Part shown: one piece after another, positions 35,372 through 37,853 of the stretch
Numbering within the stretch: the first letter of the stretch is position 1
Layout of the letters: each line of letters starts with the position of its first letter
From: a bacterium
GTDB lineage: Bacteria; UBA8248
Direction: 5' to 3'
Assembly (NCBI GenBank): GCA_965213625.1
Contig: CBDBZU010000004.1
Coordinates: 2,176,001-2,240,000 of the forward strand
DNA: 64,000 nt
The notes under the pieces: generated by a model
Databases searched by the model: none
The model's input: only the letters and a program-made list of their open reading frames with translations
What the model was told of the DNA's origin: nothing
Made by a program: the position numbers and the translations under genes

Positions 35372-35752
35372 ATGACTATCTACAGATTCGAAGATTTGCA
35401 GGACGTGCGTCAGAACCCCGGCCTCTCCTCAGGCCACGGGGAGACCATCAAGGGGGAGAAGATGTATTTCTGCCACCGCATCTGGGAGGCGGGCACGGAA
35501 GCGAAGCCCCACTACCACGCATGCGAGCAGTTCATCTACATCATGCGCGGAAGGCAGAAGTTCACGATGGGCGGGGAGGTGCACGAACTGGGACCCGGTG
35601 ACGTCATCCACATACCCGCGAACGAGGTGCACGCGGCGGAGATGATCGAGGAGGTCGAAGCCATCTACGTCAAGGACACAACCTGGAGCCTCAAAGGAGT
35701 CGCCGCTGGTGAAGCGGCGCCCGACGCCCCGCCGCCCGATGATCCGTTTTAG
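35372..35752 (+). CDS. Cupin domain protein
   Basis: HYHACEQ...G, GDVIHIPANEVH. Confidence 0.88.
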   Translation: MTIYRFEDLQDVRQNPGLSSGHGETIKGEKMYFCHRIWEAGTEAKPHYHACEQFIYIMRGRQKFTMGGEVHELGPGDVIHIPANEVHAAEMIEEVEAIYVKDTTWSLKGVAAGEAAPDAPPPDDPF

Positions 35753-35769
35753 GTTTAGCCACCCGCATT

Positions 35770-35794
35770 GTAGGGGTCGTATATATGCGACCCT
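35770..35794. repeat. GTAG-type REP-like palindrome
   Basis: GTAGGGGTCGTATATATGCGACCCT. Confidence 0.7.
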
Positions 35795-35960
35795 CATAGA
35801 GAAGAGAAGGCCACGGGCATCGCAATCCTTCCTCCAGTGTCGCAGCGCGTTCTTATGAAATCGGCGAATGTCAGACAGCGGGCCGATGGGGTGGACGCCC
35901 CCTTCCGGCAGTTTAGAATGTGGCGAGGCAACGTCACACACCGCCCGGAAGGAGGCATCC

Positions 35961-36986
35961 ATGGAAGGAGTCTACATCATCGGCATCGACTTGGCGAAAA
36001 ACAGTTTTCAACTCCACGGGGCGCGCGCGGACGGTTCGGTAGCGTTCCGCAAGAAGCTCGGTCGGGCGGGTCTGCTGAACTTCCTGGCCAAACAGCCGCG
36101 CTGCGTGGTGGCGATGGAGGCGTGCGCGGGGGCGCACCGCTGGGGCCGTGAGATTGCGAAGCTCGGCCACGAGGTTCGGCTCGCGCCGCCGGCCTACGTG
36201 AAGCCGTACGTGAAGCGCCACAAGAACGACGCGGCGGACGCGGAGGCGATTTGCGAGGCGGCCTCACGACCGACGATGCATCTCGTGGCGGTGAAGAGCG
36301 AGGAGCAGCAGACCGAGGGGATGCTGTTCCGGGCGCGGGATTTGCTGAAGCGCCAGAAGACGCAGACGATCAACGCGTTGCGGGGACACCTGGCGGAGTT
36401 CGGGGTGGTCGCGCGGCAGGGTCCGGTGGGCCTCACGCGTCTGGCGGCGGCGGTTCGGGGAGCGGAATCGGGTCTGCCGGTGGCGGTTCGGGAGTTGGGC
36501 GAGGTGTTTCTGGAGCAAATCGCGGGTCTGAGCCGGAAGATCGGGGAGTTGGAGAGTCGGCTTCACGCGAGCGTCCACGCGGACGAGGAGGCGCGGCGTC
36601 TGATGCGTATCCCGGGGGTGGGTCCGGTTACGGCGTCTGCGATCCGTGCCTTCGCGCCGCCGATGGAGAACTTCCGGCGGGGCCGGGACTTCTCGGCCTG
36701 GCTGGGACTGGTGCCCCGGCAACACTCGACGGGGGGCAAGCCCCGCCTGGGCCGGGTATCGAAGATGGGCCAGCGCGACGTGAGGCGGCTGTTGGTCACG
36801 GGCGCGATGTCGGTGATTCGCCAGGCGCTCCGGCGCGGCGCGCCGCCGGGTTCGTGGCTGGCCCGGATGCTGGCGCGCAAGCCGAGGATGCTCGTCGCGG
36901 TGGCGCTGGCCAACAAAATGGCGCGCATCGCGTGGGCGCTGATGCGGAACAAGGACGACTACAGGGAACCGGCGCCCCTCGCCTGA
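35961..36986 (+). CDS. IS110 family transposase (DEDD RuvC-like recombinase)
   Basis: IGIDLAK, MEAC, KNDAADA, IPGVGP, GLVPRQHSTGG, ALANKMAR; GGAGG RBS. Confidence 0.97.
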   Translation: MEGVYIIGIDLAKNSFQLHGARADGSVAFRKKLGRAGLLNFLAKQPRCVVAMEACAGAHRWGREIAKLGHEVRLAPPAYVKPYVKRHKNDAADAEAICEAASRPTMHLVAVKSEEQQTEGMLFRARDLLKRQKTQTINALRGHLAEFGVVARQGPVGLTRLAAAVRGAESGLPVAVRELGEVFLEQIAGLSRKIGELESRLHASVHADEEARRLMRIPGVGPVTASAIRAFAPPMENFRRGRDFSAWLGLVPRQHSTGGKPRLGRVSKMGQRDVRRLLVTGAMSVIRQALRRGAPPGSWLARMLARKPRMLVAVALANKMARIAWALMRNKDDYREPAPLA

Positions 36987-36989
36987 GCG

Positions 36990-37240
36990 GCGGGCGCGCG
37001 GATAGAGCCGGGAGGAATGTGGGCAGGCCACAGGAGGAGTAAGGGCAAACGGTCATCGAGACGGGGTCGGGGCAACCAGTTACATGCGACGAGCGAACCA
37101 TCGAGCTCGCCGGGCCGATTCGGACCCGACCCGCGCATCTCCATACGGGCCCGCGGCCGTTACGAAGCGCCGCAACGAAGAGGCCGAATGTACGACTGAG
37201 TCGAACCGCTTTGCGCCGAACCCTCCCAAAAAACCGCTTG
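36990..37240 (+). ncRNA. Predicted bridge RNA / seekRNA of the IS1111-group element
   Basis: Stem GGGTCGGG(37064-37071)/CCCGACCC(37125-37132) encloses loop strands TACATGCG and CGGGCCG matching the target flanks; second loop contains ATGTACGA matching the donor junction. Ends approximate. Confidence 0.8.
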
Positions 37241-37272
37241 CATTCCAGGGGGGCGTCCATGTACGCATGTAT

Positions 37273-37297
37273 GTCAGACATATATGTCTGACCCTAC
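37273..37297. repeat. REP-like palindrome
   Basis: Perfect 20-bp palindrome GTCAGACATATATGTCTGAC followed by CCTAC. Confidence 0.75.
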
Positions 37298-37368
37298 ACG
37301 AACATCGTGGTTTTACGGTGGCGGGCCCAGCCTGTAACCACGTCAGACATCACCAGGGAGAAGAAAGG

Positions 37369-37416
37369 GTAGGGACAGGTCGCGACCTCGGACAGGCACA
37401 AGGGCCTTGTCCCTAC
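37369..37416. repeat. GTAG-type REP-like element
   Basis: GTAGGGACAGGTCGCGACCT...CCTTGTCCCTAC; near reverse-complement copy at 26100-26139. Confidence 0.75.
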
Positions 37417-37436
37417 AGCCGACATCATCCGATTAC

Positions 37437-37853
37437 CTACACCGTCCCGTAGAGTTCCTCCGCCTTGGCGTCGAGATGCTTGATGATGTCCGCCAGATCG
37501 TCGGGGTAGTGGTGGTCCGCCCCCAGGTCGGGGTCTTCGGCGGGTGATTTCGCCACGAACATCACCGCCTTTTCGGTCAGCGTTCTCCCGCCGTGGAGCG
37601 TCCCTCTGGGAATGTGAAGTATGTCGCCGGGGCCGATGATTCGCTCCTCATCGCCGAGTCTCATGTATCGCTTGCCCTCGATGATGTAGACGTATTGTTC
37701 CTCGTTGTTATGCCAATGAGGTTTGGAGCCCGTGCCCCTGCGGTAGGTGACCATCCCCGCCTTCATGAACTCCCCGGCCAGGGGCTTGTACTCGCCCGGG
37801 TTTCCCGTGCTGAGCTGTACGTTCTCGATGGTGTCGGTGCTGTAAAATGGCAT
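37437..37853 (-). CDS. Cupin domain protein
   Basis: HWHNNEEQ, GDILHIPRGTLH. Confidence 0.88.
   Translation of the reverse strand: MPFYSTDTIENVQLSTGNPGEYKPLAGEFMKAGMVTYRRGTGSKPHWHNNEEQYVYIIEGKRYMRLGDEERIIGPGDILHIPRGTLHGGRTLTEKAVMFVAKSPAEDPDLGADHHYPDDLADIIKHLDAKAEELYGTV

What the first reader, a model, noticed from the sequence alone, without database searches (positions are those of the whole stretch)
36990..37265. Readable RNA guide: IS1111-group bridge/seekRNA whose loops match its own target and donor sites
Seen: removing the IS at a shared CG core rebuilds the empty site CGGGC-CG-CATGTA (35879-35885 plus 37266-37271) and the circle junction CCATGTA-CG-ATGG. In the 3' non-coding region an outer stem GGGTCGGG(37064-37071)/CCCGACCC(37125-37132) and an inner hairpin CGAGC(37090-37094)/GCTCG(37105-37109) frame an internal loop. 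Its two strands are TACATGCG (37081-37088, reverse complement of CG-CATGTA, 8/8) and CGGGCCG (37111-37117, identical to CGGGC-CG, 7/7). A second stem GGCC(37148-37151)/GGCC(37182-37185) is flanked by CCAT (37141-37144, complement of donor ATGG) and ATGTACGA (37188-37195, identical to donor ATGTA-CG-A). Established: IS110/IS1111 DEDD recombinases use a bispecific ncRNA, encoded downstream in IS1111-group elements. Inference: an intact, potentially reprogrammable RNA-guided recombinase with a CG core.
Basis: partly seen in the sequence, partly recalled or inferred. Interest (0 to 1): 0.82.

Follow-up and report, generated by a model that had tools for sequence, protein, structure and literature searches.

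The report
IS1111-type insertion sequence with guide RNA

Summary
Window 35886-37265 is a 1,380-bp IS110-family element of the IS1111 group. It has a 341-aa DEDD transposase, 11-bp subterminal inverted repeats, a CG core repeated at both junctions and a 279-nt non-coding region downstream of the gene. The genome holds 3 identical full copies and 2 identical deletion copies. All five are flanked by GGGCCG and CATGTATG. Nine unoccupied GGGCCGCATGTA sites lie in REP-like palindromes.

The decisive evidence is comparative. In 38 relatives with different targets, three RNA segments follow each element's own flanks or right end: the two target-loop strands and the 3' donor segment. None of 10,000 flank permutations reached the observed score for any of the three. 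Same-genus relatives show single-base guide and flank co-changes. The stems show compensatory changes.

The GGCC stem and the CCAT/ATGG match never vary, so covariation cannot test them. RNA expression and transposition are not shown.

Verdict: observation confirmed and interpretation supported. This is a new member of a known kind (Siddiquee 2024; Durrant 2024), of modest interest.

The parts
35879..35885 (+). Left half of the target plus the left copy of the CG core (CGGGC-CG). This is host DNA.
   Evidence: GGGCCG precedes the IS in 5 of 5 copies; the base before it is C in 4 copies and A in 1.
35886..37265 (+). The whole insertion sequence, 1,380 bp. The boundary can slide by 2 bp because the CG core is repeated.
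   Evidence: three copies in the genome are 100% identical over these 1,380 bp; the boundaries are fixed by 5 occupied and 9 empty sites.
35886..35891 (+). Left terminal extension ATGGGG, the right-hand side of the circle junction (donor).
   Evidence: ATGG begins the left end in nearly all of the 50 relatives anchored.
35892..35902 (+). Left subterminal inverted repeat TGGACGCCCCC.
   Evidence: an 11/11 inverted repeat with 37249-37259. The same repeat is found in most relatives.
35892..35919 (+). Promoter-like site TGGACG-16 nt-TAGAAT upstream of tnp.
   Evidence: 1 site found against 0.1 expected in shuffles. This is a consensus match only. An xxxAAT word stands at the same distance from the repeat in many relatives (by eye).
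35961..36986 (+). tnp, a 341-aa DEDD (RuvC-like) plus Transposase_20 recombinase.
   Evidence: PF01548 at 2.3e-12 and PF02371 at 5.5e-23. NF033542 at 316.5 bits against a cut-off of 140; aligns to the ISCro4 and IS621 transposases. A GGAGG ribosome site lies just upstream.
37056..37204 (+). Conserved bridge/seekRNA scaffold, defined as the extent of the covariance-model match.
   Evidence: 101 bits, and the only match in the 64-kb window.
37064..37132 (+). Target module. P1 is 37064-71 with 37125-32. P2 is 37076-79 with 37120-23. P3 is the hairpin 37090-94 with 37105-09. Together they frame an internal loop.
   Evidence: pairs with compensatory changes are 6 of 8 in P1, 1 of 4 in P2 and 3 of 4 in P3. 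In this copy P2 carries one A-C mismatch.
37081..37088 (+). 5' loop strand TACATGCG, complementary to the top strand of core plus right flank (CG-CATGTA).
   Evidence: Across 38 relatives the self-match sum is 220 against 118.0 +/- 6.1 in permutations (0 of 10,000 reach it).
37111..37119 (+). 3' loop strand CGGGCCG, identical to left flank plus core and so able to pair with the bottom strand. It is followed by AT, the first two bases of the IS left end.
   Evidence: sum 271 against 139.6 +/- 6.8 (0 of 10,000). The AT extension is conserved in most relatives.
37139..37144 (+). CTCCAT, complementary to the left-end ATGGGG with one G-U pair. This is the proposed 5' donor segment.
   Evidence: The covariation signal is only weak because both sides are nearly invariant: 172 against 163.3 +/- 3.4, with 106 of 10,000 permutations as high.
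37148..37185 (+). Donor-module stems. P4 is GGCC 37148-51 with GGCC 37182-85. P5 is GCGGC 37153-57 with GCCGC 37169-73.
   Evidence: P4 is invariant in 36 of 36 sequences, so it is untested. P5 has compensatory changes in 3 of 5 pairs.
37188..37195 (+). 3' donor segment ATGTACGA, identical to the right-end tail plus CG core plus the first base of the left end, that is, to the circle junction.
   Evidence: sum 276 against 161.1 +/- 8.7 (0 of 10,000).
37238..37243 (+). TTGCAT, a possible -35 box of a promoter that would be completed only in the excised circle (18 nt, then TACGAT spanning the junction).
   Evidence: My reading. CTTGC is at least 90% conserved in 36 relatives although it lies outside any helix or guide. 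This is an inference by analogy with the junction promoter described for ISEc11 (PMC11187229, sections 8 and 14).
37249..37259 (+). Right subterminal inverted repeat GGGGGCGTCCA.
37260..37265 (+). Right terminal extension TGTA plus the right copy of the CG core.
   Evidence: the dinucleotide here equals the one before ATGG in 44 of the 50 relatives anchored (CG, TG, AG or CA).
37266..37292 (+). Right half of the target (CATGTA) followed by the REP-like palindrome at 37273-37292. This is host DNA.
   Evidence: CATGTATG follows the IS in 5 of 5 copies. Similar palindromes occur throughout the genome.

Best explanation
Window 35886-37265 is an intact and probably recently active insertion sequence of the IS1111 group of the IS110 family. 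It encodes a 341-aa DEDD recombinase. Downstream of the gene lies a structured non-coding RNA of the bridge/seekRNA kind.

Target module (37064-37132). Stems P1, P2 and P3 hold open an internal loop. The 5' loop strand (TACATGCG) pairs with the top strand of the CG core plus the right half-site. The 3' loop strand (CGGGCCG) pairs with the bottom strand of the left half-site plus the core. Together they specify the 13-bp site CGGGC-CG-CATGTA, which lies in a REP-like palindrome.

Donor module (37139-37195). CTCCAT and ATGTACGA flank the P4/P5 stems. They match the two sides of the circle junction, ...CCATGTA-CG-ATGGGG...

Reaction. The recombinase-RNA complex would bring the excised circle and the target together and exchange strands at the CG core, leaving CG on both sides of the inserted element.

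Shown here: the anatomy, site specificity in 5 of 5 copies, unoccupied sites, stem covariation, and guide-to-flank covariation in relatives.

Inferred from published relatives: that the RNA is made and bound by the protein, that a circle forms, the strand-exchange chemistry, and that changing the loops would retarget the element.
For: 1. Family. Pfam matches DEDD_Tnp_IS110 and Transposase_20. NCBIfam gives 'IS110 family RNA-guided transposase' at 316.5 bits against a cut-off of 140. The protein is 41% identical over 98% of its length to IS5075/IS4321-family transposases. The subterminal repeats are 11 bp. The downstream non-coding region is 279 nt against 75 nt upstream.

2. Site specificity. 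Five of 5 copies are flanked by GGGCCG and CATGTATG. There are 9 unoccupied GGGCCGCATGTA sites. The one-base variant GGGCCGCATATA occurs 21 times and none is occupied by this IS.

3. Recent activity. Three copies are 100% identical over 1,380 bp. Two identical 1,035-bp deletion copies lie at different loci.

4. Core. In 44 of the 50 relatives anchored, the dinucleotide before ATGG equals the one at the right end, and it varies among CG, TG, AG and CA.

5. Guides covary with flanks. In 38 relatives at under 90% non-coding-region identity, summed longest matches to the element's own flanks were compared with 10,000 flank permutations. The 5' strand scored 220 against 118.0 +/- 6.1. The 3' strand scored 271 against 139.6 +/- 6.8. 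The 3' donor segment scored 276 against 161.1 +/- 8.7. No permutation reached the observed value for any of the three.

6. Single-base co-changes in same-genus relatives:
- guide GGGACG with flank GGGACG (L113, L128);
- guide GGGTCG with flank GGGTCG (L114);
- guide TATATGCG with flank CATATA (L114);
- a 10-nt match to a different target (L115, L129).

7. Structure. Of 935 cells, 92.7% form a pair against 86.3 +/- 0.5% in shuffles. Thirteen of 26 pairs have compensatory changes against 7.0 +/- 1.3 (0 of 500 shuffles reach either value). Controls with partners slid by 1-3 columns pair only 24-43%.

8. Breadth. A covariance model built from 36 relatives finds the RNA just downstream of tnp in 22 of 24 held-out relatives (79-128 bits). 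It also finds it in an E. coli plasmid IS (68.6 bits) and weakly in IS5075 (21.9 bits). At the model's guide positions those two elements carry 8-9 nt matches to their own flanks (by eye).

9. Agreement with print. The strand order (top-strand match first) and the overlap at the insertion point are as described for IS1111-type seekRNAs (PMC11187229, section 9).
Against: - No direct evidence that the RNA exists. No promoter-like site lies immediately upstream of it. The only transcript hint comes from contigs of RNA libraries, which can contain DNA.
- The single-sequence fold of the non-coding region is no more stable than shuffles (z = +0.80; 162 of 200 shuffles fold at least as well). The minimum-free-energy fold pairs parts of the proposed guides.
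- The 7-mer CGGGCCG alone turns up in 15% of shuffles.
- The P4 stem and the CCAT/ATGG match never vary, so covariation cannot test them.
- The 5' donor segment is not complementary to the core: the RNA reads CCAT-AC where CCAT-CG would be needed.
- No conserved stem closes the donor part into a loop.
- Some relatives match their flanks poorly, with longest matches of only 2-4 nt (L044, L060, L092, L109). Guide matching is therefore not perfect at every insertion.
- P2 has an A-C mismatch in this copy.
- Related sequences are not independent, so the permutation counts overstate the significance somewhat.
Confidence: 0.92

Rival explanations
1. The element is a real IS1111-type IS, but target choice is made mainly by the protein recognising the REP hairpin and the subterminal repeats. 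On this view the RNA matches are secondary or only fine-tune the choice.
For: All targets here lie in REP-like palindromes. The subterminal repeats and the ATGG end are strongly conserved whatever the target. Some insertions match their guides poorly. A preprint title and abstract report a 'sequence-structure dual-match logic' for ISPpu10 (seen only in the listing).
Against: Relatives with the same conserved ends insert into unrelated sequences that track their loop sequences. The one-base variant site CATATA is more abundant than CATGTA (21 against 14) yet none is occupied by this IS. A relative whose guide reads TATATG sits at CATATA. The seekRNA was shown to be essential and reprogrammable for ISEc11 (PMC11187229, section 10).
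Confidence: 0.05
2. The matches between the non-coding region and the flanks are coincidence or a by-product, for example captured REP fragments. On this view the region is just a 3' UTR or regulatory hairpin of tnp.
For: The region is GC-rich, so short matches are common: the 7-mer appears in 15% of shuffles, and the lenient two-match test passes in 4.8%. The fold energy is not exceptional. Rfam has no family for it.
Against: The 8-mer and 7-mer appear together in 7 of 30,000 shuffles. Homologous positions in 38 relatives match their own different flanks, with 0 of 10,000 permutations as high. Compensatory changes support the stems. The loop strands are the most variable part of an otherwise conserved scaffold.
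Confidence: 0.01
3. The element has the right anatomy but is no longer mobile in this genome. The copies would then have spread by recombination or conversion among REP doublets rather than by RNA-guided transposition.
For: Three of the five copies share an identical 48-nt left flank. That flank belongs to a REP-doublet repeat family. The deletion copies cannot make full-length transposase. No circle junction or transposition event was observed.
Against: The three full copies have an open 341-aa frame, and the catalytic-type residues align with solved relatives. The copies have different right flanks and different outer left flanks, which conversion alone does not explain. All five sit at exactly the guide-specified position.
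Confidence: 0.02

Closest known systems
IS1111-family elements with an experimentally shown seekRNA: ISEc11, ISPa11, ISKpn4 and ISPst6 (Siddiquee et al. 2024, PMC11187229; sections 6, 8, 9, 10, 13 and 14 read)
   Same: - A transposase of about 340 aa with a DEDD domain and a C-terminal domain carrying the S/T-G motif.
- Subterminal inverted repeats and a long non-coding region downstream of tnp.
- An RNA with a segment complementary to the top strand lying 5' of one complementary to the bottom strand, the two overlapping at the insertion point.
- A REP target, as for ISPa11.
- Natural retargeting among relatives through changed loop sequences.
   Different: The sequence is different: about 41% amino-acid identity to the IS5075/IS4321 family. 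The four studied elements themselves were not compared here. The target (CGGGC-CG-CATGTA) and the host are also different. Nothing has been shown experimentally for this element. That paper describes the target matches of a short RNA of about 82 nt; the sections I read did not describe donor-matching segments.
IS621 / IS110-group bridge RNA (Durrant et al. 2024, PMC11208160, passages; Hiraizumi et al. 2024, PMC11208158, passages; solved structures 8wt6 and 9t56)
   Same: - One RNA with a target-specifying part and a donor-specifying part, each reading both DNA strands around a 2-nt core.
- A homologous recombinase (E 2.3e-08 to IS621 and 2.5e-11 to ISCro4, over the C-terminal domain).
- A REP target.
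- Two bases after the left-flank guide (AT) equal the first bases of the IS end. This resembles the 'handshake guides' described for IS621.
   Different: - The RNA lies at the 3' end rather than the 5' end, and the order of the strand matches is reversed.
- The subterminal repeats are long (11 bp).
- The donor segments flank a stem; a closing outer stem was not found.
- The core is CG rather than CT.
- The position aligned with ISCro4's conserved Ser-Gly (the motif holding the IS621 S241 nucleophile; the IS621 alignment was not printed) is Thr (T257-G258, my count). This TG variant is noted for IS1111 transposases in PMC11187229, section 6.
IS1111-group bridge RNAs predicted by Durrant et al. 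(ISCARN28, ISAzs32, ISPa11; Fig. 6 and the Extended Data Fig. 10 legend, read as passages only)
   Same: A bridge RNA predicted in the right end of 93.0% of IS1111 elements in ISfinder, with loops complementary to target, donor and core.
   Different: The figures are not held, so I could not compare the architecture directly. Whether this element is an ISfinder entry could not be checked, because no ISfinder search was available.
ISPpu9 of Pseudomonas putida (PMC12288879; abstract and outline read)
   Same: An IS110-family element in REP sequences, with modules that move separately. This is comparable to the deletion derivative seen here at two loci.
   Different: [quoted passage not shown] No separate RNA-only module of this IS was found here.

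Membership tests
IS110 family, IS1111 group (insertion sequence) | N-terminal DEDD (RuvC-like) domain and C-terminal Transposase_20 domain, related over the full length to IS1111-type transposases | tested here: met
   PF01548 at 2.3e-12 and PF02371 at 5.5e-23. NF033542 at 316.5 bits against a cut-off of 140; 41% identity over 98% of the length to IS5075/IS4321-family transposases.
IS110 family, IS1111 group (insertion sequence) | Conserved G-L-x-P-x4-S/T-G motif and DEDD residues present | tested here: met
   GLVPRQHSTG is present. T257-G258 aligns with the S-G of ISCro4. D10, E53, D90 and D93 sit in the GIDLAK, AMEA and NDAADA contexts (my count on the translation). Catalysis itself was not tested.
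IS110 family, IS1111 group (insertion sequence) | Subterminal inverted repeats of 7-17 bp with short terminal extensions | tested here: met
   An 11/11 repeat at 35892-35902 and 37249-37259, each 6 nt from the element end.
IS110 family, IS1111 group (insertion sequence) | The longer non-coding region lies downstream of tnp | tested here: met
   279 nt downstream (36987-37265) against 75 nt upstream (35886-35960).
IS110 family, IS1111 group (insertion sequence) | Insertion at one specific sequence in one orientation | tested here: met
   Five of 5 copies have the same flanks and orientation. Nine empty sites exist.
IS110 family, IS1111 group (insertion sequence) | A circular intermediate with abutted ends | not testable with these tools
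   Only contigs of RNA libraries were laid.
Bridge RNA / seekRNA | A structured RNA in the non-coding end, conserved in relatives, with covariation-supported stems | tested here: met
   13 of 26 pairs have compensatory changes, with 0 of 500 shuffles as high; the model finds it in 22 of 24 held-out relatives.
Bridge RNA / seekRNA | Two loop segments that match opposite strands of the target, overlap at the core, and change with the target | tested here: met
   0 of 10,000 permutations reach the observed score for either strand.
Bridge RNA / seekRNA | Segments matching the element's own ends (donor) | tested here: inconclusive
   The 3' donor segment is met and covaries with the right-end tail and core (0 of 10,000). 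The 5' donor segment (CCAT against ATGG) is nearly invariant, giving a weak signal (106 of 10,000), and is not complementary to the core.
Bridge RNA / seekRNA | The RNA is transcribed, bound by the recombinase and required for transposition | not testable with these tools
   Contigs from RNA libraries cover close relatives of the region but do not prove transcription.
Rfam families | A match to a curated RNA family | tested here: not met
   no match at E up to 1 over 35500-37600. No matching family is held in Rfam 15; this does not bear on the function.

The most novel reading that the evidence does not exclude
In this IS1111-type RNA the donor half may work differently from the closed donor-binding loop of IS621. 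The two donor-matching segments sit outside an invariant GGCC/GGCC stem with no conserved closing helix. The 5' segment never pairs with the core.

The two bases after each guide may act as 'handshake' bases for the recombination products. AT after the left-flank guide equals the start of the IS. In relatives, the two bases after the donor guide match the first bases of the right target flank at 29 of 72 positions, against 18.0 +/- 3.0 in permutations (5 of 20,000 as high). This element itself does not show that second match.

If real, this family would give a sequence-level picture of how IS1111 elements divide donor recognition between the RNA and the protein-bound subterminal repeats. According to the discussion of PMC11187229 (section 14), how ends are recognised in this group is still open.
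Probability: 0.25. Interest if true: 0.45.

Novelty: new member of a known kind. Interest (0 to 1): 0.3.

Why it matters
RNA-guided DEDD recombinases are being developed as genome-writing tools. Each natural element with a readable guide, a defined core (here CG), known ends and a clear target adds a candidate and a data point on the rules.

This family is useful for three reasons. First, 38 relatives share one scaffold while their guide segments differ. Second, close relatives differ by single guide bases that match single-base differences in their sites. Third, within one genome the IS occupies only the CATGTA form of a repeat and none of the 21 CATATA forms, which is a natural measure of specificity.

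For the biology of the host it is an ordinary, apparently active IS living in REP-like repeats. It does not change what is known about the mechanism.

Tried and rejected
- Rfam scan of 35500-37600 at E up to 1: no family matched.
- Single-sequence fold of the non-coding region: not more stable than shuffles (z = +0.80). The minimum-free-energy fold is not the comparative structure, so it is uninformative.
- Search for an outer stem closing the donor part: RNAalifold on 37120-37265 and its homologues gave only P4, P5 and a weak 5-pair helix with the right inverted repeat. That helix had almost no compensatory change, so I did not adopt it.
- Apical CCATCG in the P3 hairpin. In this copy it is complementary to CG-ATGG, and I considered it as an alternative donor guide. 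It is not conserved in relatives, so I rejected it.
- Co-mobilisation of the left flank. Three copies share an identical 48-nt left flank. I rejected co-mobilisation as the main reading because the same REP-spacer-REP doublet occurs unoccupied, at 84-96% identity, in other genomes of the genus and once in this genome. Why the three flanks are 100% identical is not settled.
- Sequencing runs. Four RNA-library runs were laid, all as contigs. X15 and X17 gave identical figures and are probably one data set.
  - Contigs 90-99% alike cover parts of tnp and 36948-37273. No contig covered about 36424-36891.
  - The tool states that such contigs do not show transcription and that uncovered parts prove nothing. 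I use them only as a hint.
  - The habitat labels of the runs are not used as evidence.
- Supplementary files of the papers were not opened. Supplementary figures of PMC11187229 (long seekRNA folds) and the tables of PMC11208160 (covariance models, the ISfinder list) may already contain this element or its scaffold.
- No protein-database search, structure prediction or complex prediction was run; the family assignment did not need them.
- Rows dropped before counts:
  - Of the 80 loci, 50 had both repeat anchors by my pattern.
  - Of those, 43 had at least 8 nt of flank on both sides.
  - Thirty-nine remained after removing non-coding regions at 90% identity or more.
  - L032, the same IS as L031, was dropped for the permutation tests, leaving n = 38.
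  - L032, L063 (gap in the donor part) and L092 (target part aligned poorly) were dropped for alignment A1, leaving n = 36.
  - L031 and L063 were lost because no anchor was found, leaving n = 36.
Full report
**What is in the sequence**

The region 35886-37265 contains one long open frame, 35961-36986 on the + strand, preceded by a GGAGG ribosome site. Its 341-aa product matches Pfam DEDD_Tnp_IS110 (2.3e-12) and Transposase_20 (5.5e-23). It also matches NCBIfam NF033542, 'IS110 family RNA-guided transposase', at 316.5 bits against a cut-off of 140.

By sequence it aligns to the solved ISCro4 (9t56) and IS621 (8wt6) transposases. It is 41% identical over 98% of its length to IS5075/IS4321-family transposases on enterobacterial plasmids. 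The closest plasmid-borne relatives, at 62-67% identity, are in Alphaproteobacteria.

An 11-bp perfect inverted repeat (35892-35902 and 37249-37259) lies 6 nt inside each end. The non-coding stretch after the gene is 279 nt; the one before it is 75 nt. These are the features that define the IS1111 group (PMC11187229, section 6; PMC11208160, passage on IS1111).

**Boundaries, target and copies**

The window's genome (4.15 Mb in 4 contigs) holds five copies. Three are 100% identical over 1,380 bp. Two are identical 1,035-bp derivatives with the same in-frame 345-bp deletion inside tnp, and they lie at different loci.

All five are preceded by GGGCCG and followed by CATGTATG. Beyond those bases the flanks differ. 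Removing the IS together with one copy of CG rebuilds GGGCCGCATGTA.

That 12-mer occurs 9 times unoccupied in the genome, always in REP-like palindromes. The one-base variant GGGCCGCATATA occurs 21 times, and none of those sites carries this IS.

**Relatives**

A scan of one genome per species found 544 stretches encoding relatives, and the best 80 were kept (57-80% amino-acid identity). In 50 of these I could anchor both inverted repeats.

In 44 of the 50, the dinucleotide just before the ATGG left end equals the dinucleotide at positions 5-6 after the right repeat. That dinucleotide differs between elements (CG, TG, AG, CA). One of the six exceptions is cut off by a contig end. This is the behaviour expected of a recombination core.

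**The RNA**

The downstream regions align into one scaffold. The order of its parts is:
- an 8-bp outer stem P1;
- a short stem P2 (CCAG with YTGG);
- a variable stretch of about 10 nt;
- a hairpin P3;
- a second variable stretch ending in GAT;
- the return strands of P2 and P1;
- a linker carrying CCATAC;
- an invariant GGCC stem P4 enclosing a hairpin P5;
- a stretch that repeats the element's own right-end tail.

I counted the 26 pairs of this structure on 36 sequences. Of 935 cells, 92.7% form standard pairs, against 86.3 +/- 0.5% when partners are shuffled (0 of 500 shuffles as high). Thirteen pairs show changes on both sides, against 7.0 +/- 1.3 (0 of 500). Structures slid by 1-3 columns pair only 24-43%.

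P1, P3 and P5 carry most of the compensatory changes. P4 never varies, so it is neither supported nor contradicted. RNAalifold found the same helices on its own. It found no convincing helix closing the donor part. Rfam 15 has no family for this RNA.

A covariance model built from the 36 sequences was searched against 28 sources:
- It finds one match in the whole window (37056-37204, 101 bits).
- It finds a match of 79-128 bits just downstream of tnp in 22 of 24 relatives that were not used to build it. One further relative gave 14.8 bits. The last locus holds only the 5' part of an interrupted copy and gave none.
- It scores 68.6 bits in an IS of an E. coli plasmid (44% amino-acid identity) and 21.9 bits in IS5075.
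- It finds nothing in IS5708.

**Do the variable stretches read the flanks?**

For each of 38 relatives (non-coding regions under 90% alike) I took four aligned segments and measured the longest exact match to that element's own flanks or ends. I then compared the sum with 10,000 permutations of the flanks among elements.

| Segment | Compared with | Observed sum | Permutations (mean +/- sd) | Permutations as high |
|---|---|---|---|---|
| 5' loop strand | reverse complement of core + right flank | 220 | 118.0 +/- 6.1 | 0 |
| 3' loop strand | left flank + core | 271 | 139.6 +/- 6.8 | 0 |
| 3' donor segment | right-end tail + core | 276 | 161.1 +/- 8.7 | 0 |
| 5' donor segment | reverse complement of core + left-end extension | 172 | 163.3 +/- 3.4 | 106 |

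The 5' donor signal is weak because both partners are almost invariant. That segment is never complementary to the core.

Not every insertion fits. L044, L060, L092 and L109 have longest matches of only 2-4 nt on one or both strands. Related elements are not independent, so the counts overstate the significance somewhat.

**Close relatives give the clearest picture**

Genomes of the same genus hold versions 76-90% identical in DNA. Where the left-flank guide reads GGGACG the flank reads GGGACG (L113, L128). Where it reads GGGTCG the flank reads GGGTCG (L114). Where the right-flank guide reads TATATGCG the flank is CATATA (L114).

A more distant version has a 10-nt match to a quite different palindrome (L115, L129). 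Others follow the same rule with one or two mismatches (L112, L116-L121, L130, L131). A second IS of this family in the same genome (76% identical) has its own guides, which match one of its two readable insertions well and the other only partly.

**For this locus alone**

The 8-mer occurs in 53 of 30,000 shuffles of the non-coding region, the 7-mer in 4,574, and both in 7.

**How it most likely works**

By analogy with ISEc11 and IS621, the element is transcribed through tnp into the non-coding region. One promoter-like site lies in the left end (35892-35919). A conserved TTGCA box near the right end could complete a promoter only in the excised circle. That is my reading, made by analogy with the junction promoter discussed in PMC11187229, sections 8 and 14.

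The RNA would be trimmed and bound by the recombinase. The 5' loop strand pairs with the top strand of CG-CATGTA. The 3' loop strand pairs with the bottom strand of CGGGC-CG. The donor segments hold the circle junction, and strands are exchanged at CG.

The order (top-strand match first) and the overlap at the insertion point agree with what Siddiquee et al. report for IS1111-type seekRNAs, the reverse of the IS110 type (PMC11187229, section 9 and abstract). The AT after the left-flank guide equals the first two bases of the IS, which recalls the handshake guides of IS621 (PMC11208158, passage). In relatives the two bases after the donor guide tend to equal the first bases of the right flank (29 of 72 positions against 18.0 +/- 3.0; 5 of 20,000 permutations as high). 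In this element they do not.

All of this paragraph is inference. No RNA, circle or transposition event was observed. Contigs from RNA libraries cover close relatives of the region but cannot prove transcription.

**Comparison with what is known, and verdict**

The element meets every defining feature of the IS1111 group that could be tested. It also meets the sequence-level features of a bridge/seekRNA. Expression, protein binding and circle formation could not be tested.

The mechanism was published in 2024. Durrant et al. already predicted bridge RNAs in the right end of 93.0% of IS1111 elements listed in ISfinder (PMC11208160, passage), and NCBI already names the protein family 'RNA-guided transposase'. 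This is therefore a correct reading of a new member of a known kind.

Its value is as a clean natural data set (one scaffold, many guides, single-base specificity) and as a candidate CG-core recombinase. It is not a discovery of principle. I could not check whether the element already has an ISfinder name. The supplementary files of the two key papers, which may list it or its scaffold, were closed.

Noticed in passing
G000 contig C4 near 592778 (+) and 2343134 (-); equivalent to window 36249-36586 deleted: Two identical 1,035-bp derivatives of the IS lie at different loci. They carry the same in-frame 345-bp deletion in tnp, with 7 nt of microhomology at the break, leaving a 226-aa product. 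Both ends and the whole RNA region are kept. This suggests a non-autonomous copy moved in trans.
   Followed up: partly
G000 C4 left of the copies at 1823689 (-), 2343134 (-) and 592778 (+); loci L003, L004/L007 and L005/L008: Three of the five copies share an identical 48-nt left flank. It belongs to a REP-spacer-REP doublet family (REPIN-like; that label is recalled). The family is found unoccupied at 84-96% identity in other genomes of the genus, including a perfect empty target in L144. Why the three flanks are 100% identical is not settled.
   Followed up: yes
window 35770-35793 and 37273-37292; many places in G000: The genome is rich in several types of REP-like palindromes, built around GGGNCGCAT(A/G)TATGCGNCCC and GTC(A/G)GACATATATGTC(T/C)GAC, often as compound units. 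The IS sits in an intergenic space between two convergent small ORFs, 35372-35752 (+) and 37437-37853 (-).
   Followed up: partly
G000 C4 about 927580-928990 (+), 4129700-4132500 (-) and 4124800-4125000 (-); loci L006, L009/L010 and L013: A second IS of the same RNA-scaffold family (76% DNA identity) has its own guides. One copy is interrupted and one is truncated. Two of its RNA copies differ by one base in the left-flank guide. Copy b's guide matches its own left flank exactly; copy a's does not (5 of 7).
   Followed up: partly
L141 (E. coli plasmid record, 2295-2436) and L140 (K. pneumoniae plasmid record, IS5075, 2276-2414): The RNA model built from alphaproteobacterial elements also finds the RNA of two enterobacterial IS1111-type elements. 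At the model's guide positions these carry 8-9 nt matches to their own flanks. In L141 the target looks like the terminal repeat of an IS5-family element (IS903-like; that name is recalled). An unoccupied copy of the site lies about 100 nt upstream.
   Followed up: partly
window 37083 and 37073 (contigs of X15/X17); 37080 (contigs of X19): Contigs from public RNA libraries hold near-identical relatives of the RNA region. One has C>T at 37083, which would fit the abundant CATATA site variant. Others are alike up to 37079/37080 and then diverge exactly where the guide begins.
   Followed up: no
left ends of relatives, equivalent to window 35903-35935: Most relatives share a conserved GGCATCGCAATGTGCC-like palindrome between the left inverted repeat and tnp. 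This element and L031/L032 have a different sequence there, containing TAGAAT. Its function is unknown; it may be a promoter or operator.
   Followed up: no
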